The translations under genes and the position numbers were made by a program. 64,000 nt of DNA from the NCBI GenBank assembly GCA_038087875.1, contig CM075989.1, positions 9,674,001 to 9,738,000 of the forward strand, read 5' to 3'. This DNA comes from Malacoraja senta (lineage: Eukaryota). The stretch's first letter is position 1, and every line of letters begins with the position of its first letter. This document shows, piece by piece, positions 213-59,900 of the stretch. The notes under the pieces are model-generated. The model saw only the letters and a program-made list of their open reading frames with translations, was not told where the DNA came from and ran no database searches.

Positions 213-286
213 CTGGGTGCTCACTCCAAAATCGCACAGCTTGACCTGTCCTCGTGTGTTCACCAGCATATTAGAGGGTTTGACAT
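213..286 (-). CDS. MAP2K5: MAP2K5 coding exon (74 nt, ~exon 14), catalytic loop and DFG
   Basis: ttgcag|AT GTC AAA...ACC CAG|gtacgc = (D)[24 protein letters not shown]. Confidence 0.97.
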
Positions 287-3200
287 CTGCAAAGGGACAA
301 AAATAGGAGGCAGAAACAATCCCTTATAAAAGCACCTCAGAATTTAATGATTCTGTAATTACAGCTATGACTCAGTAATGCAGAGGATGAAAGCAACACA
401 AAGGCTATATAGATTGAAGCGACAAGCTTTGCACCTGCTGCACACATGTACAATGCCCCTGAATAACAAGTATCAGAAAAGGTTTTTCAAATCAGCAAAT
501 ATTTTCATTACAACATTTAGTCACAAGATAAAACTGTATCATTTAATTAAAATCATAAGATAGTTGATGTCACAAAAAAGATCTATCCTGCATCATTTAA
601 AAAAACGTACATTATCTTATTGTTAATGATTTATCAAAGAGCTCTGCTGGAGGTCCTTACCTCTATTTTGGCAGCATCTCTCTCCTGCAAGGCATCGGTT
701 CAACCACAGTATAATGCAGGAGGGAGCTGTCAATTCTGAGCTAGGAACTTTCAACAGAGCTCTAGAAGCAAAAGTAACCAATAAGCCTTAAAAACATTTC
801 AGCTTCATTAATATCAATTGTGAACTTTGCTCTGAAGTTTCTTTGAAGAGTTGCAGCTAATATCATCAGCAGGAAGTGGTTTGAACTCTTGTTACTAAAT
901 TCAATACTATGAGGCAACTGGAATAAACAGACAAAGTCATTAATCCCAGGTGCTTCAATTTCAACTCTGCATGTTAATTTATCTCTTTCATATAAGGGTG
1001 AAGGGTAACTTTAAGCTGATTCTTCTGATGTAGTAACCATTGCTAAGAGTTCAACAAAAATATCGAACAGAAACAAACAAAAGGATGCTCAAGCTAATGG
1101 CAACTCTTTGTAGCCTGTTATTTTTAGCAAGGATTCTGCAACAGGCAGTTAACGAGTGACAGGCGGGTTCCACTTTCACAGACATCCATCGGTGAATTTT
1201 GCCCTTAGGTTCGAAAATCCACAAAAATCACTTGACATGGTCATCATACTTCCACATTATTGTAACGAATAACACACAGACTGGTAGGAAAGAACAATTA
1301 TAAAAGATAGAGAGAGAGGAGAAGCTAGTTCTGTCGTATGATGTATGTATGTACATACTGTCGTATAGAGGTATGTACCTACATTGTACTTTTTAGTTTA
1401 ATAACATTATGGAAGCTCGCTTAAATTAGGTGTTTGTAACCCAGGGACGGCCTGCATAGTGAAACTCATGCTTTAGAATTATCTCTGCTAAACTTTAAAA
1501 TGCAAACAAGTTAATTTCACCACCTCATGGTTTACTGAGATATAATTTTTAATTACCAGTTCTCCTCCCCCCTTTCCCATAATATTCCAGTAAATAGATG
1601 TCCTGGGCAATGCAGTATTTTGATATGCCAAAGTGTGACTGATCTTACAATGAGAGCGCATGTCCACCAACTCATCTTTTGGTTGGGTGAAAAAGAATAA
1701 AGCAGGAGTGGGATGTATAACGTGTATGTAAGTCTAGGGAGCAAGATAAGATTCTGGTTACCATAAATGTCAAGAGCAGTCCTCAGACCACACTAAAACT
1801 GTTCAGGGATGTACACCTAGCAATTATGCAAGATGATTTCATTCATCGGCTATTTTATCCAGATTTTCACCCACTGGTTTTTCTGGAGTTACTGACACAG
1901 AGAATTATGGCAGAGAATTAATTATATGATGGGATCTGGTGGGTCTTTTAACTGATGTAATCTCACCATGCAAAAGCATTGGTAATTTACTAAAAGGCAT
2001 GAACTTCCTGGAGCCAACAGCATTGGGTGATTTTCCAAAGCCTTTGTCAAAATTATCTCATCACCAATAAGATGTACCGGTTTTGTTTGGGCTTAGGTCA
2101 GCATTTCTTGACGTTAGTGAGGCTAAGACCTAATATGGATATAATGCCTAATCGCCACAGCTGAGGTGCAGTTGCTCTGTTGATGTAACAGGGTATTTGA
2201 GAAACAGCGCCATCACTGTCCATTTTTAGAATAAAAGTTGTAATCGTCTATTTGTTTATCCCTGTCTTTGCAGAGAATCTGCTAGAACTGATGAACCTAT
2301 CAAGATTATTTTATAGGATGCTATATTTCCTGCTAAATAGTTTGATAATTAATTTGATATTTTAACTGCATTAAATTATAGGAACACAGTAGCTTACTCA
2401 GCAAAAATCTGAAATCCAAGTTACTCAAATGCATGAGAAACCAAGGGCAAAGGGAAATTCAATTAGAACAAAATCACTGAAAATACGACTTCTGAAACAA
2501 GAGTTTGAGGTGCCTTCCACCGAGAGCTGTAAGCACCCGTGGAGTAATATATCCTCTATACGTCAGACAGCAGAAAGACCTGAAAAGTGAATTTAACAGA
2601 AGCAACAGTACTGCCCTTTGACTTTAAAGTATTTGAAACTCAGAAAACAATGAAATATCTCATCATCCCTGGCAAATGAATACGAGAATGCATAGCCTCA
2701 CATGAAATGGGATTACATTTTAATTTGATGCTAACCATATTCAGTTTTAAGTTAAAAGAGTGGAAGTAAATCAAGTATAGCACTTTGCGTCCTTTTGTGT
2801 AATAACCAGCATTTACAGTTCCTTGTTTTTACAAATATTAATACATAGTAAAAGGAAATAAAGTATCTTACACACAAGTATTTTTTATAGAGATTCAGCA
2901 CCCAAGTATGAATCAGCTGTGGTTTTGAAAGCTTGTAAATATAGCTGGCGCCAGTTGATGGAGAAATGGCTAATGTGGCGGATTAGATCAATACTGATGG
3001 GCTTGGATTAATGGGAATGATCTGATAAATGAGGCAAGTTTATTTCCACCAAAGTGTCTCAATTAATAGGCTTCAAATCAAAATGATGTTTTGAAATAAA
3101 GCCTGTATATACAGTTATAGAGTCATACAACAGGAAGTGGCCCATCAGCCACCTTATTGCCCTCTGCACTAGTCCCATTTATCCATATTAGGTAAAGCAG

Positions 3201-16027: not shown

Positions 16028-16592
16028 CTAAAGAAAATAATAACAAAGGGGAAAATATGTGAAATTATTACAATCAACTGTAAATTTCTTAATTAAATTG
16101 CTTTTGTATTCGTGACTAAGTGATATACTGGAGAACTCTATCTGGTTCAAGGTCAAGTACAACAGCCAATTACTTAAGGCTTAGGGATATTTTAAAAAAC
16201 TACTATTTCCAATTTTAGATAATCAGTAATTAGGTCTTATGCTTCTAATCAAATACCAGCTAACTGACATTTAAATAACAGAACTGACATTTTTGAAATA
16301 TTTGTTTAAATGTAGTCATACTATTAAGAAATCACTGCTATACCATCATTTTTCTTGAATAAAGGCACACCGAACATATAGGCTTGTTGCCAATCAACTT
16401 AGTCGTAATGGGCTATTGCAAAAGCACTCTTGTGTTTGATGAGATAGAACATTTCCACCAATAGAGGAATAAGTATGATAAAAGTGATCCATTAGGAAAG
16501 CATTTCCAAAGTACTTGGACAGTGTGGAAAAAAAACATTTATACTCCAGAATATACACCAAAGGGATTAAAAAAATAAACAGCTAGGTGGAC

Positions 16593-16737
16593 TCTTCTTC
16601 TTCTTCTTGTGTATGGCGTGCACAGCCTAAAGTTGTAGGACAACTTGTTCTATTTGATCTTATTTGATTGTGCACGCCGGGTTGATTGCATTCGTCGAAA
16701 CAGTGCAACCACGTGAAGGTTGCAATCTTCCACCCCT
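16593..16737 (-). mobile_element. Short non-autonomous retroelement with 5' HDV-like ribozyme and (GAA)n tail
   Basis: 12-bp TSD with one mismatch (AGCTAGGTGGAC 16581-16592; AGCTTGGTGGAC 16738-16749); minus-strand 3' end AAGAAGAAGAAGAAGA; internal stem GGCGTGCACA/TGTGCACGCC. Confidence 0.85.
16684..16736 (-). ncRNA. HDV/CPEB3-like ribozyme fold with minimal P4; P1 degenerate in this copy
   Basis: GGGGUGG AA GAUUGCA ACC UUCACGU GGU UGCACU GU UUCGA CGAA UGCAAUC: 7-bp P2, 3-bp P3, L3 UUCACGU, J4/2 C-GAA with catalytic C at 16694. Confidence 0.7.
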
Positions 16738-17049
16738 AGCTTGGTGGACAATCAACCTATTATCCGAGGAGGAAATTAATACATTATCATTAAAGAGGAT
16801 ACTGGTAGGGCAGTATCTTTTGAAGATGAAACCATGCTCAAATAAGCATAAATATCTGTGGAAAATCTAGTTTGATTCCAGTTTGACAACTCCAGTTTGG
16901 GAGGTAGCCCTGAGGAGCTATACCTGCAGATTGTGGCATCATCTGACAAATCATATGTCCAGCATTGGCCATTGCCTATGGAGTCATGCTCTAAGACTCC
17001 ATAGAATTATACTCTGGACCTGAGTATGCCCATGGTACCTTAAAGCACA

Positions 17050-20028: not shown

Positions 20029-20166
20029 CAATAGACAATAGACAATAGGTGCAGGAGTAGGCCATTCGGCCCTTCGAGCCAGCACCGCCATTCAATGTGA
20101 TCATGGCTGATCATCCCCAATCAGTACCCCGTTCCTGCCTTCTCCCCATATCCTCTGACTCCGCTA
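20029..20166 (-). mobile_element. Young CR1 3' tail
   Basis: caatagacaatagacaataggtgcaggagtaggccattcggcc is the reverse complement of the tail at 52560-52651. Confidence 0.8.
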
Positions 20167-21337: not shown

Positions 21338-21513
21338 AGAGGCCAATTCACTGGATGTTTTCAAGAGAGTTAGATAAAGCTCTTAGGGCTAACGGAATCA
21401 AGGGATATGGGGAGAGAGCAGTAATAGGGTACTGATTTTGGATGATCAGCCATGATCATGTTAAATGGTTCGAATGGCCGAATGGCCTACTCCTGCACCT
21501 ATTTTCTATGTTT
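21338..21513 (+). mobile_element. CR1 3' tail fragment
   Basis: gaggccaattcactggatgttttcaagagagttagat...ggcctactcctgcacctatt. Confidence 0.8.
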
Positions 21514-28290: not shown

Positions 28291-28656
28291 TGGTAAACAT
28301 CACCTGGTGAACCAAATGGAAAACCACTGGGATTTCCAATGGTTACAGAGTGGATTATTGGAGTTCTACTGTCCTCACCATTAAAGGTCTATGGGCATGT
28401 GCTGCTGATGCACAGCTTTAAAAGACCTTAACAATGGGAAATCTTACCATTTAATTTGGATATATTCGCTTAAATATGGGCGTACATAAATATCATCTGC
28501 TATTACTTTAAGGAGTACATTGCTCTCTTCCTCCCACAACAAAATATATTCTCAGCTCTGATTGTTTCAATATTTCATCCTTAACTGCACAATTACATAT
28601 TAGATATAATTAAAGGGTAACAAGTCCTTATGCAGCCACTTTCAAGTAATAGTATT

Positions 28657-28997
28657 CAGGGATTGGACACGCTAGATGCAGGAAACATGTTCCCGATGTT
28701 GGGGGAGTCCAGACCCAAGGGCCACAGTTTAAGAATAAGGGGTAGGCCATTTAGAACTGAGATGAGGAAAAACTTTTTCACACAGAATTGTGAATTTGTG
28801 GAATTCTCTGCCACAGAAGGCAATGGAGGCCGATTCACTGGATGCATTTAAAAGAGAGTTAGATAGAGCTCCTAGGGCTAGCAGAAACAAGGGATATGGG
28901 GAGAAGGCAGGAACGGGGTACTGATTGTGGATAATCAGCCGTGATCACATTGAATGGCGGTGCTGGATCGAAGGGCCGAATGGCCTACTCCTGCACC
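28657..28997 (+). mobile_element. CR1 3' fragment
   Basis: GLDTLDAGNMFPMLGESRPKGHSLRIRGRPFRTEMRKNFF; same family as 52320-52650. Confidence 0.85.
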
Positions 28998-45112: not shown

Positions 45113-45377
45113 ACATTGTGGCATGAATCTGTACTATTTCTCTTGGACAATTGTTATGGATTACGTAGAATCACAAATCAAATCGCTTGCAGAGCGTTCT
45201 TGTTTAGCAACAAACTTTCAAGAAGCCAGTTTCAAGTGACTGGAGTTCAGAGTTATGCAATCTTTAAAAGGGTCATTTATTTGCTTTTCATAACCTTAAA
45301 GCAAATGATCAAAAAACCACAAAAACTGAGATGAAGTAATATTCCTCAAATGTTGACATTTCAGGACATTCTTGTTT

Positions 45378-45658
45378 ATAGACAATAGACAATAGGTGCA
45401 GGAGTAGGCCATTCGGCCCTTCGAGCCAGCACTGCCATTCAATGTGATCATAGCTGATCATCCCTAATCAGGACTCCGTTCCTGCCTTCTCCCCATATAC
45501 CCTGACTCCGCTATCTTTAAGAGCCCTAACTAGCTCTCTCTTGAAAGTATCCAGAGAACCGGTCTCCACCACCCTCTGAGGCAGAGAATTACACAGACTC
45601 ACAACTCTCTGTGTGAAGAAGTGTTTCCTCGTCTCTGTTCTAAATGGCTTACCCCTTA
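45378..45658 (-). mobile_element. Young CR1 3' fragment
   Basis: GKPFRTETRKHFFTQRVVSLCNSLPQRVVE plus CTATTGT-repeat tail. Confidence 0.85.
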
Positions 45659-49278: not shown

Positions 49279-52200
49279 ATAAGATCAGTGATAGGAGCAG
49301 AATTAGGCCATTCAGCCAATCTAGTCTACTCCGCTATTCAATCATGACTGATCTATCTCTCCCTCTCAACCCCACTCCCCATAACCTCTGACACCCATAC
49401 TAATCAAGAATCCATCTATCTCTGCCTTAAATATTTCCTTGACTTTGCCTTGACTGTGTGGCTGGGGGGCTGGTGGAGGGAGCAAGGATTTAGATTTATA
49501 GACTACTGGGATCTCTTCTGGGGTAGGGATGACCTGTACAAAATGGATGGTTACACTTAACTGGAAGAGGACCAACATTCTGGCAGGCAGATTTGCTAGT
49601 GCTACACGTGTGGGTTACACTAAATAGTGGGGGGGTTTGATAAATTGGGAGTATAAAGATGGAGTTAAAGGGGAAGTGAGTACAGGAAAAAGTTACAAAA
49701 GGCTCCCTAATTAATGGGAAGGAAAGTTCGAGAAGGGATAAGAGAGTAAGGTCAGGGCCAATAGTGACCGGTGTGAGAGGGGAGGTGAATACCGAAGTTA
49801 AAGTGTTGTATATGAATGCACAAAGTATATGAGATAAAGTGGATGAGCTTGAGCCTCAGTTAGAAATTGGCAAGTATAATTTGTGGGAATTACAGAAGAC
49901 ATGGCTGCAAGGGGACCAGGGCTGGGAACTGAATATTCAAGTGTATATGTCCTATCGAAAAGACAAACAGGTGGGCAGAGGGGGAGCGGTAGCTCTGTAG
50001 GTGAGGAATGAAATTTAGGCCCTTGAGAGGGGTGACATAGAATCAGGAGATGTCGATTCAGTATGAATAGAACTGAGGAATTGTGAAGTTAAAATACCAT
50101 AATTGGATTTATCTACAGGCCCCCAAACAGTAGCCTGGAAATAGGGTGCAAGGTTGAATCAAGAGTTAAAATTGGCATGTCGTAAAGGTAATGCTACGGA
50201 TGTTATGGGAGATTTTAACATGCAAGTAGACTGGGAAAATCAGGTTGGTATTGGACCCCAAGAAAGGGAGTTTGTGGAGTGCCTCCGTGATGGATTCTTA
50301 GAGCAGCTTGTACTGGAGCCTACCAGGGGAGAAGGCAATTCTGGATTTAATGTGTGTAATGAACTTAATTTGATAAGGGAACTCGAGGTAAACGAGCCAT
50401 TAGGAGGTCCATAATATGATTACGTTTTATCTAAAATTTGAGAGGGAGAAGGGAAAATCAGAAGTGTCAGTATTACAATTGAACAAAGGGGACTATGGAG
50501 CCTTGAGAGAGCTTGCCAAAGTTGACTGGAAAGATTCCCTAGCAGGGATGACAGTGGAACAACAATGGCAGGTATTTCTGGGAATAATTTAGAAGGTGCC
50601 CGATCAGTTCATTCCAAAGAGGAAGAAAGATTCCAAGGGGAGTAAGGGTGACCGTGGCTGACAAGGGAAGTCAAGGACAGTATAAAAAATAAAAAATAAG
50701 TATAACATAGCAAAGATGAGCAGGAAGCCAGAGGATTGGGAAACTTTTAAAGAGCAACAGAAGATAACTAAAAAGGCAATACTGGGAGAAAAGATGAGGT
50801 ACAAAGGTAAGCTAGGCAAGAATATAAAGGAGGATAGTAAAAGCTTCATTTAGGTTTGTGAAGAGGAAAAAATTAGTTAAGACCAAATTTAGACCCTTGA
50901 AGACTGAAACAGGAGAATTTATTAATGGGAACAAGGAAATGGCAGACGAGTTGATCAGGTACTTTGGATCCGTCTTCATTAAGGAAGAACACAAACAATC
51001 TTCCTGATGTACAATTGGCCAGACGATCTCGGGTGACGGAGGAACTGAAGGAAATTCACATTCGGCAGGAAATGGTGTTGGGTAGACTGATGGGACTGAA
51101 GGCTGATAAATCCCCAGGGCCTGATGATCTGTATCCCTGGGTACTTAAGGAAGTGGCTCTAGAAATCGTGGATGCATTGGTGATCATTTTCCAATGTTCT
51201 ATAGATTCAGGATCAGTTCCTGCGAATTGGAGGGTATCAAATGTTATCCCACTTTTTAAGAAAAGCAGGAGAGAGAAAACAGGGAATTATAGACCAGTTT
51301 GCCTGACATCAGTGGTGGGGAAGATGCTGGAGTCAATATAAAAGCTGAAATAACGGCACATTTGGATAGCAGTAACAGGATAGGTCCAAGTCAGCATGGA
51401 TTTACGAAGGGGAAATCATGCTTGATTAATTCTTCTGGAATTTTTTTGAGGATGTAACCAGGAAAATGGACCAAGGGAGAGCCAGTGGATGTAGTGTACC
51501 TCGACTTTCAGACAGAATTTGATAAGGTCCTACAAAGGAGATAGTGGGCAGAATTAGAGCACACGGTATTGGGGGTAGGGTACTGACATGGATGGAAAAT
51601 TGGTTGGCAGACAGGAAACAAAAAGTAGGGATTAGCGGGTCCCTTTCAGAATGGCAGGCAGTGACTATGGGGTACCGCAAGGCTTGGTGCTGGGACTGCA
51701 GCTGTTTACAACATACATTAATGATTTAGAATAAGGGATTAAAAGTAACATTAGCAAATTTGCAGATGACACAAATGGCAGTGTGAACTGTGAGGAGGAT
51801 GCTATGAGGATGCAGGGTGACTTGTACAAGTAGTGTGAGTGGGCAGATGCATGGCAGATGCAGTTTAATGTGGATAAATGTGATGTTATCCACTTTGGTG
51901 GCAAAAACAGGAAGGCATATTATTATCTGAATGGTGTCAAGTTGGGAAATGGGGAAGTGCAACGAGATCTGGGGGTCCTTGCTCATCAGTCACTGAAAGT
52001 AAGCATGCAGGTACAGCAGGCAGTGAAGAAAGCGAATGGCATGTTGGCCTTCATAACAAGAGGTTGAGTATAGGAGCAAAGAGGTCTTCTGCAGTTGTAC
52101 AGGGCCCTAGTGAGACCACACCTGGAGTATTGTGTGCAGTTTTTTGTCTCCAAATTTGAGGAAGAACATTCATGCTATTCAGGTAGTGCAGCGTAGGTTC

Positions 52201-53495
52201 ACGAGGTTAATTCCCGAGATGGCGGGACAGTCATATGTTGATGGAATGGAGCGGCTGGGCTTGTACACTCTGGAATTTAGGATGAGAGAGGAATTTATTG
52301 AAACATATAAGATTATTAAGGGTTTGGACACGCTAGAGGCAGGAAATGTTGGGGGAGTCTAGCACCAGGGGCCACAGTTTAAGAATAAGGGGTAAGCCAT
52401 TTAGAACGGAGATGAGAAAACGTTTTCACAAATCTGTGAATCTGTGGAATTCTCTGCCTCGGAAGGCAGTGGAGGCCAATTCTCTGGATGCTTTCAAGAG
52501 AGAGTTAGATAGAGCTCTTAAAGATAGCAGAGTCAGGGGATATGGGGAGAAGGGAGGAACGGGGTACTGATTGTGCATGATCAGCCATGATCACAGTGAT
52601 TGGTGGTGCTGGCTCGAAGGGCCGAATGGCCTACTCCTGCACCTATTGTCTACTGCCTCCACAGCCTTCTGAGGCAAAGAATTCCACAGATTCACCGCCC
52701 TCTGACTAATACATTTATCCTCATCTCCTTCCTAAAAGAACGTCCTTTAATTCTGAGGCTATGACCTCTAGTTCTAGACTCTCACTCAAGTGGAAACATC
52801 CTCTCCACATCCATTCTATCCAAGCCTTTCACTATTCTGTACAATTCAATGAGATCCCCAATCATTCTTCTAAACACCAACAAGTATAGGCCCAGTGTCG
52901 TCAAATGCTCATCATATGTTAACCTACTCATTCTTGGGATCATTCTTGTAACCTCCTCTGGACCCTCTCCAGAGCCAGCACATCCTTACTCAGATACGTT
53001 GCCCAAAATTGCTCACAATATTCCAAATGCACCCTTACCAGCGCCTTATAGAGCCTCAGCATTACGTCCTGTTATTATATACATGCCCTCACGAAATAAA
53101 TGCTAGAATTGCATTTGCTTTCTTTACTACTGATTCGACTTGCAGATTCATTTTTTGGGAATCCTGCACCAGCACTCCCAAGTCCCTTTGCACCTCTGAT
53201 TTCTGGATTCTCTCTCCATTTAGAAAATAGTCTATGCCTTTATTCCTACTACCAAAATGCATGACTCTACACTTTTCTATACTATATTCTATCTACCACT
53301 TCTCTTCACACTCTCCCAACCTATCCAAGTCCTTCTGCAGAGTTCCTGCTTTCTCTACACTAACTGCCCATCCACCTATTTTCGTATCATCCGCAAACTT
53401 GGCCACAAAGCCTTCAATCCCCTCATCCAAATCATTCATATGCAACGTGAAGAGCAGCGGCCACATCCCACCATCCCTGCGGAACTCCGGAGTTC
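49279..53495 (-). mobile_element. CR1 fragment (49279-49450 + 52654-53495), inside a Penelope terminus and split by another CR1
   Basis: FVAKFADDTKIGG on the minus strand near 53370-53410; 3'UTR at 49279-49450 continues at 52654. Confidence 0.85.
49451..52653 (+). mobile_element. CR1 LINE with nearly complete decayed ORF2 (APE + RT)
   Basis: VLYMNAQSI, MGDFN, KSPGPD, NYRPVCLTSVVGKMLESI, SKFADDT, MQFNVDKC; tail CTACTCCTGCACCTATTGTCT; many stops and frameshifts. Confidence 0.92.
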
Positions 53496-57864: not shown

Positions 57865-59835
57865 CATGTGTGACTTAGGTGGATCTGAAAGATGGGGAAG
57901 AGGTGGGAACAATTAGAGTGCTTGAGGAATGAAAGCTGGTAGTCTCAGGTTAAGAACAGGGACTAGAATAAGGGCAGAGATCAAGTAACTGAGCAGGCAT
58001 GAGTGAGGATGGGTTGTGTAGTACTGGTTGAAGGAGGCACTCAGCTAAATGGCTCTGTCAGGTCTCCATCACACTGGTTTTGTATCCATTGCTTATTTAA
58101 TGGAGAAACTGGTGGAACATCTTACAAGAAAATATGTTTGTAGATACAGGTCCTAGCACACTGAGGAAAGGTAAGAAAGCTTGGAGTGATGTGAGTGGAT
58201 AGAGGATTAAAATTTGCAAATTGTATTTATTGTTGCATTGAAGCTTGTGTTTTGTGTCTCCTGGTCTTTATCAGTGACGTAAATTTCCTAGACATTCAAT
58301 ACACCATTGCTATTACTACATCATTTGTATCTCGTAAAAATATATCCAATATCAATAAAAAATAAGTAATAGGATATTTAAAAGTTTTTGAGATTTTATT
58401 TCGAAGTTCTTTCATTTTCATTAGGACCATACTTGAAGACTGCTTCTGGGATTTTTGCAGTGTTTCTCTACTTAATCAAAAGCCATGATGCAAGCGATTT
58501 GTTCCCCCTTTTGATGCGAAAGTGCCTTGCATTTGCTCTGTACTGCTGCTCCACTAGAGTGCTATGATAAAGGGCATAAACAGCAAGCCTGCTGAGTTTT
58601 AAGAGTATTACTGCACCAGCTAGTTGTGCGTCACCCGCTTCCCTTGTTTATTTTCACAAGAAAAGGTATTGGTGAATATTAGAGAAAATATAATCATTAA
58701 AAAAACAACAACTGTATTATGCAACCATTTACATATATAAGCCTTTCAACTGCAACATGAATACATTTGCACAACAACTGCTAATGTCTGGCAAGAACAT
58801 ATCATATTCAAGTGCGCAATTTACATCCAAAACAAGAAAGTGATTAAAACTACCTACAAACTGGTTGTACTCAAATGCAGAAGATATTTGCAGGACAAGG
58901 TTTTAAGGAAGACAGTAAGTAGAAAATTTGAGAAAAACGATTGTTCTTTATTTCCCCACCACATCCTTTGTTATTTGCAAGGAAAAACCTGAAAATATTA
59001 CACACCTACACTATTACCTACAGAAAACAAAAGCATCTCTAGTTGATGCAATAAGATTTTACTCACTACCATATACAAGATGAATTGCAGTTGTGAACCG
59101 ATTGTAACTGTACTCAATTGAGTGAAAAGCTATTTGCGCAACATAATGGGCATCTGGGAGGACGATTACATGAAGTGTTGAGACAAAAATCTCAGTTTTC
59201 GGTTAGTCTGGAAGTCGTAGTCACTAACAGTATGCAAGCTTGCCTGCTTGGTAAGCCACAGCTCATTCCTGCCATCTCCATCCCCAACATTTATTTTAAA
59301 ATGCTTTGTCAATTAGCAGTTGGAGTTTGTGAACTGCCATCCGGGTATGTGAGGAGTGTGATCGCTTTCAAATTAAAGAGAAACAACAAAGTAATTCAAC
59401 CCACTGCAATAAAATTTAAGTGGTTGTAAAAATAAATGGGTTGTTTTTTTTATATACAAGTGCAAACCAGAGTAGACAGTCTCCCTTTAAGCCAAGGTTA
59501 GTGCAAGCAGTGATCAATACCTCAATCTCAATAAACTATTTCAATAATAGTTGATTCAGGTGGAAACAGGAGTTGAAATTTCTGTTCATCGACCTATGTC
59601 ACCTTGTCATGTTTGCTGAACACTGATAATACATCATAGCTGTAATGGAAATGACTAAGTGTAAAGTGTACACAGAAAGGCACCCACAGAATCGCTTTCA
59701 TTCTTCAACATCAAATCAATATGATATGCATGCCTTCAGCCAAAACCATATGATGGATGCTAGGAGGACATTAAAAAACCCTTTACCAACATTTCTCAAT
59801 GCATTCCGTGGTAATAGGTAGAGGCAGATACTCAC

Positions 59836-59900
59836 TTGTACACTGTCCCTCCATTGCCATGACCGAGGATATCTCGATACTGAATGTCCTGTTCATTCAT
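59836..59900 (-). CDS. MAP2K5: MAP2K5 coding exon (65 nt, ~exon 8), Gly-rich loop
   Basis: Minus strand ttttag|ATGAAT...TACAA|gtgagt translates MNEQDIQYRDILGHGNGGTVY(K), matching recalled MEK5 MNEQDIRYRDTLGHGNGGTVYK; ends phase 2. Confidence 0.97.

What the first reader, a model, noticed from the sequence alone, without database searches (positions are those of the whole stretch)
16581..16749. 145-bp retroelement headed by a minimal HDV/CPEB3-like ribozyme, sense within a MAP2K5 intron
Seen: the minus strand reads GGGGUGG-AA-GAUUGCA-ACC-UUCACGU-GGU-UGCACU-GU-UUCGA-CGAA-UGCAAUC, then a stem-loop and a (GAA)n tail, all inside a 12-bp TSD with one mismatch. The predicted cleavage-site G (16736) is 1 nt from the TSD edge. 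Known: HDV-like ribozymes use this nested double pseudoknot. The mammalian CPEB3 ribozyme, as I recall it, has the same L3 UUCACGU, a CU-GU junction and CGAA J4/2. R2, RTE and Ingi-type retrotransposons use 5' HDV-like ribozymes to release their RNA from host transcripts. Inference: a promoter-less SINE-like family that self-cleaves out of pre-mRNAs and borrows a LINE RT (Ingi/Vingi or RTE), with P4 reduced to ~5 nt. I cannot tell whether the family is already catalogued.
Basis: partly seen in the sequence, partly recalled or inferred. Interest (0 to 1): 0.9.

Follow-up and report, generated by a model that had tools for sequence, protein, structure and literature searches.

The report
Ribozyme-headed SINE, decayed copy in intron
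This is a worn-out copy of a very abundant 144-base jumping element whose first 54 bases are built like the hepatitis-delta/CPEB3 self-cutting RNA, so the element most likely cuts itself free from host gene transcripts before a larger jumping gene copies it back into the genome.

Summary
In detail: window 16593-16736 (minus strand) is a 144-nt retroelement inside a 12-bp target-site duplication with one mismatch.

- **Family size.** A 21-nt core anchor has 4166 matches genome-wide. 611 copies keep one of the two exact 54-nt head variants.
- **Fold.** The family consensus, unlike this copy, has a perfect 7-bp P1 with a G1.U wobble, a 7-bp P2, a 3-bp P3, L3 UUCACGU, J4/2 CGAA, and a 5-nt linker in place of P4.
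- **5' ends.** Of 100 unselected copies, 87 start with the GGGGTGG head at the predicted cleavage G or shifted by a 1-nt J1/2 indel. None extends upstream.
- **Rfam.** An intact copy gives CPEB3_ribozyme as its best hit, at 23 bits, below the 35-bit cut-off. The same genome holds sister families at 35-64 bits.
- **LINE relative.** One sister family heads a 3.1-kb endonuclease plus reverse-transcriptase LINE with a (GAA)n tail.
- **Covariation.** Across these families P1, P2, P3 and P4 covary while the catalytic core stays fixed.

The window copy has lost P1 and is probably dead. Cleavage is untested, and poly(A) RNA-seq showed no 5' ends piling up at G1. I rate it a new member of a known kind, with an interesting sequence link to the mammalian CPEB3 ribozyme.

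The parts
16738..16749 (-). 5' target-site duplication copy, GTCCACCAAGCT
   Evidence: It matches 16581-16592 with one mismatch.
16737..16737 (-). Single extra A between the TSD and the element's first base
   Evidence: The same 1-nt offset occurs in 6 of the 25 copies with a scorable TSD.
16730..16736 (-). P1 5' strand GGGGUGG. G16736 is G1, the base just 3' of the predicted cleavage site.
   Evidence: Rfam alignments of an intact copy place the model's first P1 G here.
16721..16727 (-). P2 5' strand GAUUGCA, preceded by J1/2 AA at 16728-16729
   Evidence: Perfectly complementary to 16684-16690. P2 covaries in 6 of 7 pairs across families.
16708..16720 (-). P3 (ACC / GGU) enclosing L3 UUCACGU
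   Evidence: L3 is identical to the Rfam CPEB3 consensus. Two of the 3 P3 pairs change on both sides.
16700..16707 (-). Damaged P1 3' strand UGCACU (consensus CCGCCCU), followed by GU (J1/4)
   Evidence: Alignment of 30 copies: one base deleted and two changed in this copy only.
16691..16699 (-). 5-nt linker UUCGA in place of P4, then J4/2 CGAA with the putative catalytic C at 16694
   Evidence: The C column is at least 90% conserved in the 52-sequence alignment.
16684..16690 (-). P2 3' strand UGCAAUC, the end of the 53-nt ribozyme remnant
16615..16683 (-). Linker AACCC plus the 3' domain: outer stem GGCGUGCACA (16669-16678) with UGUGCACGCC (16615-16624), and inner hairpin GUUGU-CCU-ACAAC (16632-16644)
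   Evidence: Fold of an intact copy gives z = -4.14. The window copy is 100% identical to the consensus over these 61 nt.
16593..16614 (-). 3' end AUACACAA followed by (GAA)4GA, a microsatellite tail
   Evidence: The number of GAA units differs between copies.
16581..16592 (-). 3' target-site duplication copy, GTCCACCTAGCT
213..287 (-). Context: host-gene exon piece [25 protein letters not shown]
   Evidence: Pfam Pkinase E = 2.1e-7. Best solved-structure matches are MAP2K1 and MAP2K2 at E = 8e-9.
59835..59897 (-). Context: host-gene exon piece with the kinase glycine loop (...GHGNGGTVYK)
   Evidence: Found by a motif scan. No Pfam hit for this 21-aa piece. Calling it MAP2K5 rests on recall.

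Best explanation
Window 16593-16736 (minus strand) is an old copy of a young, abundant, non-coding non-LTR retroelement, a SINE-like or SIDE-like element. The family's first 54 nt form a minimal HDV/CPEB3-type double-pseudoknot ribozyme.

**Proposed mechanism.**
1. The element has no recognisable promoter of its own, so it is transcribed as part of host transcripts, for example from introns in sense orientation (inferred).
2. The ribozyme cleaves just 5' of G1. This frees an RNA whose first base is the first base of every genomic copy (inferred from the fold and the 5' ends; not assayed).
3. The 3' stem-loop and (GAA)n tail are used by the reverse transcriptase of an endonuclease-bearing LINE with a (GAA)n tail for target-primed reverse transcription. 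This produces the 7-15-bp target-site duplications (inferred).
4. An RTE-like 3.1-kb LINE in the same genome, headed by a full-size ribozyme of the same type, is the best candidate, or a close relative of the real partner.

The window copy has lost a base and changed two more in the P1 3' strand. It is most likely catalytically dead and an inert passenger of the MAP2K-type intron.
For: **Family.**
- 40 of 40 scored genome hits are 95-98% (the window copy itself 100%) identical to the query.
- A 21-nt anchor has 4166 matches, with 0 for the reversed control.
- The exact 54-nt head occurs 186 times with A8 and 425 times with G8, again with 0 control matches.

**Fold.** The consensus reads GGGGUGG-AA-GAUUGCA-ACC-UUCACGU-GGU-CCGCCCU-GU-UUCGA-CGAA-UGCAAUC. 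That gives P1 of 7 bp with G1.U36, P2 of 7 bp and P3 of 3 bp.

**5' ends.**
- All 30 best copies begin at G1 with unrelated upstream DNA.
- 25 of those 30 have a TSD scoring at least 7. It abuts G1 in 19 and lies 1 nt away in 6.
- In the first 100 places listed by a scan that did not select on the 5' end, I tallied by hand: 67 with the exact GGGGTGGRA, 13 point-mutated, 7 with a 1-nt J1/2 indel, 7 lacking or changing only G1, and 6 truncated by 3-8 nt. None extends upstream.

**Rfam.** A 101-nt scan of an intact copy gives CPEB3_ribozyme at 23.1 bits (E = 1.7e-4), HDV_ribozyme at 21.3 bits and HDV-F-prausnitzii at 14.4 bits as the three best families. All are full-length matches with P1 and P3 in register.

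**Relatives.**
- RF00622 run over the whole genome gives 60 matches, 39 of them at or above the 35-bit cut-off and the best at 64.2 bits.
- All 10 loci re-scanned at the gathering threshold hit RF00622 at 36-61 bits.

**Covariation.** This used 52 sequences: 48 of the 60 matches plus 4 SINE copies.
- 91.6% of cells are paired, against 78.1% in shuffles (0 of 500 reach it) and 38-50% when the partner is slid.
- 17 of 25 pairs change on both sides.
- 139 cells carry double changes, against 43.8 in shuffles (0 of 500).
- P2, which is not part of the Rfam model, is 94.7% paired, and 6 of its 7 pairs covary.
- L3, the GU, and the C and AA of J4/2 are at least 90% conserved.

**LINE.**
- L096+L103 is a 3.1-kb element with a TSD, a 5' ribozyme, a 940-aa ORF and a (GAA)n tail.
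- Pfam finds RVT_1 at 2e-32, Exo_endo_phos_2 at 6e-8 and Exo_endo_phos at 3e-5.

**No Pol III head.** ARAGORN finds nothing in 4 of 4 loci. No tRNA, 5S or 7SL match appears in the Rfam scans.

**Literature.**
- P4-less HDV-like ribozymes are a known class (PMC10879173, passage read).
- RTE and baggins elements are reported to carry HDV-like ribozymes, to lack promoters and to be transcribed from introns (PMC6765202, passages read).
Against: - No cleavage assay exists.
- The SINE head scores 23.1 bits, below Rfam's cut-off of 35. A 12.5-kb scan of four intact loci missed it altogether because of filter settings.
- P4 is absent.
- In poly(A) RNA-seq raw reads, 459 reads were laid from about 6% of the run. 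No place showed molecules piling up at G1, and at least 125 reads run across G1 into unrelated flanks. This is weak evidence. The library is poly(A)-selected, read strand was not resolved at the junction, and most genomic copies are mutated.
- Within the SINE family itself there is no covariation. Variation is almost all CpG decay, so support for the structure comes from comparison with sister families.
- No LINE shares the SINE's head or its 3' stem-loop by sequence.
- The LINE found shares only ACG.AA(GAA)n. Its local alignment score of 27 is no better than shuffles at 23.8 +/- 3.9.
Confidence: 0.8

Rival explanations
1. The 5' domain keeps an HDV-like shape but no longer cleaves in this P4-less SINE. 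It would serve instead as a protein-binding or cDNA-completion module, for example recognition by the LINE protein. The uniform 5' ends would then arise some other way, such as cleavage by a host nuclease at the structured boundary.
For: No P4. The Rfam score is below the cut-off. No read starts pile up at G1 in poly(A) RNA. Reviews note that 5' ribozyme folds of R2 also act in translation and protein binding (PMC6765202, passages read).
Against: - The putative catalytic C, L3 and the G1.U pair are kept in the consensus and in 611 exact copies.
- A second, independent P4-less family (D) keeps the same core with different helices.
- P4-less HDV-like ribozymes are a described class (PMC10879173, passage read).
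- The element's first base is exactly the base predicted from the fold.
Confidence: 0.12
2. An ordinary Pol III SINE. The uniform 5' end would be a transcription start set by an internal promoter, and the HDV-like fold would be a coincidence.
For: SINEs usually have uniform 5' ends. UGUUUCGACGAA has a loose likeness to a B box: 6 of 9 specified positions, by my own comparison with a consensus that I recalled.
Against: - ARAGORN finds no tRNA-like head in 4 of 4 loci, and there are no tRNA, 5S or 7SL hits.
- The three best Rfam families are all HDV-type.
- A protein-coding 3.1-kb LINE starts with the same motif at the same G.
- Helices covary across six families while the core is fixed.
Confidence: 0.03
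3. The window copy is itself still an active ribozyme that cuts the host pre-mRNA intron.
For: It lies in sense orientation in an intron of a MAP2K-type gene. P2, P3, L3 and J4/2 are intact.
Against: The P1 3' strand has one deletion and two substitutions, leaving a G-A mismatch and an unpaired G7. A 101-nt Rfam scan identical to the one that scores an intact copy at 23.1 bits finds nothing at E up to 10.
Confidence: 0.05

Closest known systems
HDV-like ribozymes at the 5' ends of non-LTR retrotransposons (R2, L1Tc, baggins, RTE)
   Same: A double-pseudoknot ribozyme sits at the very 5' end, and its cleavage site is the element's first base. The elements have no promoter of their own and are co-transcribed with host sequences, including introns (PMC6765202, passages read). 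The LINE found here has the RTE-like build: one ORF with APE and RT, about 3.1 kb, and a microsatellite tail.
   Different: The host is a vertebrate genome. The core sequence is of the CPEB3 type, scoring up to 64 bits on Rfam's CPEB3 model. The element in the window is a 144-nt non-coding derivative. The clade of the LINE was not tested by phylogeny. I could not read the primary paper on RTE and baggins ribozymes (PMC3308841 is not held).
Ribozyme-headed non-autonomous elements: R2 SIDEs of Drosophila and NARTc of Trypanosoma cruzi
   Same: These are short non-coding elements that keep the LINE's 5' ribozyme and a 3' end used by the LINE's reverse transcriptase (PMC3414825 and PMC3383444, abstracts seen in search listings; PMC6765202, passage read).
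   Different: SIDEs and NARTc share both ends by sequence with their LINE. Here no LINE with the same head or the same 3' stem-loop was found. Only the ribozyme type and the (GAA)n tail are shared. Insertion is dispersed rather than rDNA-specific, and copy number is in the thousands.
Mammalian CPEB3 ribozyme (Rfam RF00622)
   Same: L3 UUCACGU, CCCUGU after P1, and CGAAU at J4/2 are the same as in the Rfam consensus, and the topology is the same. One sister family in this genome (family C) also matches the consensus in the sequences of P1, P2 and P4. In copy L099, 54 of 67 aligned positions are identical, by my count.
   Different: CPEB3 is a single-copy ribozyme in an intron of one gene and is reported only from mammals (PMC8233481, passage read). 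This one is a multi-copy retroelement head with different P1 (positions 5-7), P2 and P3 sequences and no P4. It scores below the family cut-off.
Minimal HDV-like ribozymes without P4 (drz-Mtgn, theta ribozymes of gut phages)
   Same: P4 is replaced by a few nucleotides, and the total length is about 50-60 nt (PMC10879173, passage read).
   Different: Those come from metagenomes and phages and are linked to tRNA genes. This one is a eukaryotic retroelement head with a CPEB3-type core.

Membership tests
HDV-like (drz) self-cleaving ribozymes | Nested double pseudoknot: P1 enclosing P3, with P2 crossing | tested here: met
   In the consensus P1 is 7 of 7, P2 7 of 7 and P3 3 of 3. Across 52 related sequences 91.6% of cells pair, against 78.1% in shuffles (0 of 500), and 17 of 25 pairs change on both sides.
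HDV-like (drz) self-cleaving ribozymes | Cleavage 5' of a G that forms a G.U wobble at the base of P1 | tested here: met
   G1.U36 is present in the consensus. The alignment column holds G.U in 18 sequences, and most of the rest are shifted or truncated copies. Position only: cleavage was not assayed.
HDV-like (drz) self-cleaving ribozymes | Catalytic C in J4/2 and a C-containing L3 able to form P1.1 with J1/4 | tested here: met
   C44 of CGAA, L3 UUCACGU and G37U38 are present. These columns are at least 90% conserved (invariant for GU) in alignment A2.
HDV-like (drz) self-cleaving ribozymes | P4 helix | tested here: not met
   A 5-nt linker UUCGA stands in its place. P4 is dispensable in the described minimal class (PMC10879173, passage read).
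HDV-like (drz) self-cleaving ribozymes | Mg2+-dependent self-scission that leaves a 5'-OH on G1 | not testable with these tools
   No assay was possible. Poly(A) RNA-seq gave no pile of starts at G1, which I treat as inconclusive.
Rfam CPEB3_ribozyme (RF00622) | Score at or above the gathering cut-off of 35 bits | tested here: not met
   An intact SINE copy scores 23.1 bits and the window copy has no hit. Sister families in the genome score 35-64 bits.
Rfam CPEB3_ribozyme (RF00622) | Single-copy location in an intron of the CPEB3 gene | tested here: not met
   The element is multi-copy. This copy lies between MAP2K-type exons.
Ribozyme-headed non-autonomous non-LTR element (SIDE / NARTc type) | Non-coding, flanked by TSDs, with its 5' end at the ribozyme cleavage site | tested here: met
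   The element is 144 nt. 25 of 30 copies have a TSD at 0-1 nt from G1. 87 of 100 unselected copies start with the GGGGTGG head at G1 or shifted by a 1-nt J1/2 indel.
Ribozyme-headed non-autonomous non-LTR element (SIDE / NARTc type) | Both ends shared by sequence with an autonomous LINE | tested here: inconclusive
   Five pattern scans found no such LINE. By my estimate, the two 5'-side scans together would pass about 70% of unrelated neighbouring sequences and the two upstream-of-stem scans about 80%. A LINE with the same ribozyme type and a (GAA)n tail exists, but its 3' end is not significantly alike.
tRNA-, 5S- or 7SL-derived Pol III SINE | Head derived from a Pol III gene with an internal promoter | tested here: not met
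   ARAGORN finds 0 genes in 4 loci. There are no such Rfam matches at E up to 10.

The most novel reading that the evidence does not exclude
The mammalian CPEB3 ribozyme may be an exapted head of this retroelement lineage. It is reported as unknown outside mammals and therefore without outgroups.

In this genome I take the host to be a non-mammalian vertebrate; that is an inference, not a test. Here RTE-like LINEs and their SINEs begin with ribozymes that pass Rfam's CPEB3 cut-off, at up to 64 bits. One family matches the CPEB3 consensus even in the helix sequences of P1, P2 and P4, which function does not constrain.

The 54-nt P4-less SINE head would then be a naturally minimised, mass-amplified derivative of the same ribozyme.
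Probability: 0.4. Interest if true: 0.85.

Novelty: new member of a known kind. Interest (0 to 1): 0.7.

Why it matters
- **A vertebrate example at scale.** Ribozyme-processed retroelements are known mainly from insects, trypanosomes and a few other groups. Here a vertebrate genome carries thousands of copies of a SINE whose only recognisable 'promoter substitute' is a 54-nt self-cleaving head. Each intact sense copy in a gene is then a potential pre-mRNA cleavage site, with consequences for host transcripts.
- **A natural minimal variant.** The family offers a P4-less CPEB3-type ribozyme for biochemistry.
- **A possible outgroup for CPEB3.** The full-size sister ribozymes give candidate outgroups for the CPEB3 ribozyme, whose origin is open (PMC8233481 states that none is known outside mammals).

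Tried and rejected
**Rfam scans that found nothing**
- Rfam on the window copy found no HDV-type hit: 701 nt at E up to 10, the whole window at gathering threshold, and 101 nt.
- Rfam on 12.5 kb of four intact loci found nothing HDV-type. The hit appeared only in a 101-nt scan with laxer filters.

**Search for a LINE sharing the SINE's ends**

| Scan | Matches | What they were |
|---|---|---|
| Ribozyme followed by non-SINE sequence | 49 | Internal-deletion variants, interrupted or 5'-truncated copies, and head-to-head inversions |
| Ribozyme followed by non-SINE sequence | 10 | Same kinds |
| Non-SINE sequence followed by the 3' stem | 37 | Same kinds |
| Non-SINE sequence followed by the 3' stem | 61 | Same kinds |
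| Non-SINE sequence followed by the tail anchor | 102 | A short SINE subfamily, SINE copies carrying a MITE, and indel variants |

- A very abundant CR1-like LINE was considered as partner and rejected. Its copies end in a TGTCTAT-type repeat, not (GAA)n. Two junctions of a CR1 tail with a 5'-truncated SINE (L075, L091) may be chimeras or insertions into the repeat.
- A recurrent ribozyme-less deletion variant (GTGGTCTGGCG) has at least 14 matches. It looked like evidence that the head is dispensable. However, 6 of 6 fetched copies share the same flanks, so one copy was multiplied inside a larger repeat.

**Expression**
- No RNA holder is listed for the stretch.
- The lay of poly(A) raw reads gave no starts at G1.

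**Earlier findings of this scan**
- There are no notes on this genome and no look-alike stretch.

**Literature**
- Searches for 'Rex3' with 'ribozyme', 'HDV-like ribozyme' with 'shark' and 'CPEB3-like' returned nothing relevant.
- The search 'HDV-like, ribozyme, RTE, vertebrate' listed four papers. I read passages of one of them, the review PMC6765202. On the listings I saw no report of a vertebrate SINE or RTE with a CPEB3-type head.
- PMC3308841, PMC3256349 and PMC3159031 are not held. These are the papers most likely to bear on prior knowledge, so the element may already be described there, in Repbase or Dfam, or in Rfam's full alignments.
- My memory that fish Rex3 (RTE clade) ends in GAA repeats could not be checked.
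Full report
**1. What is in the window**

Read on the minus strand, 16749-16581 is GTCCACCAAGCT, then A, then a 144-nt element, then GTCCACCTAGCT. The element's parts are:
- GGGGUGG-AA-GAUUGCA-ACC-UUCACGU-GGU-UGCACU-GU-UUCGA-CGAA-UGCAAUC, at 16736-16684.
- A linker, AACCC.
- A 10-bp stem (GGCGUGCACA with UGUGCACGCC) around a small hairpin.
- AUACACAA(GAA)4GA, ending at 16593.

The 53-nt head occurs once in the window, with none expected by chance.

**2. It is one copy of a large, young family**

- The assembly is 1.94 Gb. It gave 1594 first-look candidates, and all 40 scored hits were 95-98% (the window copy itself 100%) identical.
- Thirty loci were aligned. Copies are 96.9-100% identical to their majority consensus, and most differences are CpG transitions.
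- Whole-genome pattern counts are 186 for the exact 54-nt head with A8, 425 with G8, and 4166 for a 21-nt anchor preceded by 13 free positions and one 'not T'. The reversed control gave 0 each time.
- Words of the SINE part alone are held by sequencing runs of five further coded organisms. Contigs of three of them, once laid, stop matching at the same two boundaries.

**3. The consensus repairs what this copy lacks**

In 26 of the 29 aligned heads (L012, a flank duplicate of L009, left out; 3 others also carry a non-CpG change) the strand after P3 is CCGCCCU or a CpG-decayed form of it. With GGGGUGG this gives seven pairs, starting with G1.U36 and including U5.G32. The window copy has U-GCACU, meaning one base lost and two changed. 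P2 (GAUUGCA with UGCAAUC) and P3 (ACC with GGU) are perfect. Between GU and CGAA there are only five bases, so there is no P4.

**4. The element begins at the predicted cleavage base**

- All 30 aligned copies start with GGGG after unrelated DNA.
- A script found a duplication scoring at least 7 in 25 of 30 copies. It abuts G1 in 19 and lies one base away in 6. L009 and L012 are duplicates of one locus.
- Those 30 were chosen by similarity to a full-length query, so I also took an unselected sample: the first 100 places, which does not constrain the first nine bases. My hand tally is below.

| State of the 5' end | Copies of 100 |
|---|---|
| GGGGTGGRA in place | 67 |
| One point change | 13 |
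| 1-nt indel in J1/2 | 7 |
| Only G1 missing or changed | 7 |
| Truncated by 3-8 nt | 6 |
| Shared sequence upstream of G1 | 0 |

Among the 67, the base before G1 is T in 37, A in 15, G in 9 and C in 6. That pattern looks like a target-site preference.

**5. Is it a ribozyme? Profile evidence**

- The window copy matches no HDV-type model.
- An intact copy, scanned in 101 nt, gives CPEB3_ribozyme (23.1 bits, E = 1.7e-4, cut-off 35), HDV_ribozyme (21.3 bits) and HDV-F-prausnitzii (14.4 bits) as the three best of 4227 families. Each is a full-length match that places the model's first P1 G on the element's first base.
- L3 UUCACGU, CCCUGU and CGAAU equal the CPEB3 consensus printed by the tool.
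- A 12.5-kb scan missed the hit, which shows how dependent on filter settings this weak match is.

**6. Relatives in the same genome carry the argument**

Searching the assembly with RF00622 gave 60 matches. Of these, 39 reach the cut-off and the best scores 64.2 bits at E = 2.7e-14. Only 59 of a roughly estimated 102,231 first-look candidates were scored. I fetched 48 of the 60. They fall into at least five families besides the SINE:
- **A:** GGGGAUC, GGUAGAA, GCG, with a P4.
- **B.**
- **C and C2.**
- **D:** a second P4-less family, with linker UUCCA or UUUCA and J4/2 CCAA. A 15-nt core that is mostly family D has 865 matches.

All 10 loci re-scanned at the gathering threshold hit RF00622 at 36-61 bits.

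**7. Covariation**

I aligned 52 sequences with MAFFT and tested P1, P2, P3 and P4 written as a pseudoknot.
- 91.6% of 1001 cells pair. Shuffles give 78.1% (0 of 500 reach the observed value), and slid partners give 38-50%.
- 17 of 25 pairs change on both sides.
- 139 cells carry double changes, against 43.8 in shuffles (0 of 500) and at most 17 when slid.
- P2 is not in the Rfam model, so the search could not have favoured it. It is 94.7% paired, and 6 of its 7 pairs covary.
- Against family A, the SINE differs compensatorily at P1 positions 5-7, at 4 of the 7 P2 pairs and at all 3 P3 pairs. L3, GU and C.AA are kept.

Caveat: cells are not independent events. There are about six families, and many rows are decayed genomic copies.

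**8. A candidate partner LINE**

- Family A heads a protein-coding element. L096+L103 runs from the ribozyme to ...CACGAAAAGAAGAAGAAGA, about 3.1 kb, inside a 12-bp duplication (GACAGAACAAAA). It has one 940-aa frame.
- That frame holds Exo_endo_phos, Exo_endo_phos_2 and RVT_1.
- Seven further family A copies begin exactly at GGGGATC.
- This is the RTE-like build. The clade was not tested. That fish Rex3 ends in GAA repeats is recalled, not checked.
- Its 3' end resembles the SINE's only in the last bases.
- Five scans for a LINE sharing the SINE's head or stem-loop found only SINE variants.
- So 'same kind of head, same kind of tail, same T-rich target end' is shown. 'This LINE moves this SINE' is inferred.

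**9. Expression**

No run is on record as RNA for the stretch. In raw poly(A) RNA-seq reads, 459 were laid from about 6% of the run:
- 95% run on into unrelated sequence.
- At least 125 cross G1.
- No place shows molecules beginning at G1.
- Depth is about 60-100 for one mate direction and 130-165 for the other.

This does not show cleavage, and it does not exclude it. The library is poly(A)-selected, strand was not resolved at the junction, and only a minority of copies keep an intact head.

**10. Host gene**

On the minus strand, a glycine-loop piece lies at about 59835-59897 and a DVKPSN...CDFGVSTQ piece at 213-287. The second piece is Pkinase (E = 2e-7) and most like MAP2K1 and MAP2K2 among solved structures. 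The element therefore lies in sense orientation in an intron of a MAP2K-type gene.

**11. Comparison with what is known**

- HDV-like ribozymes at LINE 5' ends are textbook, including RTE and baggins elements that lack promoters and are transcribed from introns, and non-autonomous derivatives exist (PMC6765202, passages read; PMC3414825 and PMC3383444, abstracts seen in listings).
- P4-less HDV-like ribozymes are also known (PMC10879173, passage read).
- I did not find a vertebrate SINE of this kind or CPEB3-type heads on retroelements. The key primary papers and the repeat databases could not be consulted.
- Family C here matches the Rfam consensus in P1, P2 and P4 as well as in the core. In L099, 54 of 67 aligned positions are identical, by my count.
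- If the genome is non-mammalian, this suggests that the mammalian ribozyme descends from such a retroelement head. I infer a non-mammalian host from the abundant young CR1-like LINEs and from chromosome-scale contigs of 9-11 Mb. This was not tested.

**12. Verdict**

The window copy is a dead member, and the family is a new member of a known kind. Its interest comes mainly from its abundance, its minimal architecture and the CPEB3 link.

Noticed in passing
L099:460-538, L100:39-108, L112:11-89, L118:11-89: A multi-copy ribozyme family ('C') scores 43-51 bits on Rfam's CPEB3 model. It matches the consensus also in the helix sequences of P1, P2 and P4, and its L3 is UUCUCGU. Whether it heads a LINE or a SINE was not worked out.
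   Followed up: partly
L096:52-576 continuing into L103:1-2614: A full-length 3.1-kb LINE inside a 12-bp TSD. It has a CPEB3-type 5' ribozyme with P4, a 940-aa APE+RT frame followed after one stop by a further 88-aa open stretch with a Cys/His motif, and a (GAA)n tail.
   Followed up: partly
L101:458-514 and L122-L143 (most): A second P4-less ribozyme-headed short element ('D': GGGGUC, GGAAAGA, GCG, linker UUCCA or UUUCA, J4/2 CCAA). In L101 it is about 170 nt with an 11-bp TSD. A 15-nt core, mostly from this family, has 865 matches. Subvariants GGGGCC/GGCCCU and GGGGUC/GGCCCCU differ in a compensatory way.
   Followed up: partly
L093 and L094 (oriented as), about 370-610: A roughly 250-bp element with terminal inverted repeats (AGGGCCTGTCCCAC...) and an apparent TTA duplication sits at the same TTA of the SINE's 3' stem in different SINE copies, in both orientations. 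At least 9 of the 100 places listed read GGCCCTTTAG. It looks like a Harbinger-type MITE with a hotspot in the SINE.
   Followed up: partly
L092:520-640: A shorter SINE subfamily with the same head and tail but a different middle (...AAACAGATAGATGTAGTGTTTTGTTAGG...). 15 of the 100 places listed read GTTTTGTTAG.
   Followed up: no
window 52053-52658, 28647-28997, 45376-45658, 20031-20135, 21427-21509; L075, L091: A very abundant CR1-like LINE (C-terminal ...FFSQRVV... region) ends in a TGTCTAT or TTCTATG-type repeat. In L075 and L091 a 5'-truncated SINE follows the CR1 tail directly. These may be template-switch chimeras or insertions into the repeat.
   Followed up: partly
L144-L149; also L061: One SINE copy with a 28-nt internal deletion that removes the P1 3' strand through the P2 3' strand lies inside a larger repeat with a C-rich satellite-like flank. 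It has been multiplied together with that repeat: 6 of 6 fetched copies share the same flanks.
   Followed up: yes
L030:1656-1680; four places listed: Head-to-head junctions in which the end of the ribozyme is followed by the reverse complement of the SINE's first bases (TGCAATC then TCCCACCCC). These are inverted 5' ends, as in twin priming.
   Followed up: no
L002:1501-1644 as laid: In the poly(A) RNA-seq run, depth over the SINE is about twice as high for one first-mate direction as for the other. If the library is stranded, transcripts carrying the SINE in one orientation are under-represented. I could not tell which orientation, or why.
   Followed up: no
L008:2884-2996: A long perfect inverted repeat (CAGCATCTCTGGAGAGAAGGAATGG...) gives sub-threshold microRNA-family matches (mir-9186 at 37 bits against a cut-off of 73). 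The same motif recurs in many flanks and looks like a common MITE or foldback repeat.
   Followed up: no
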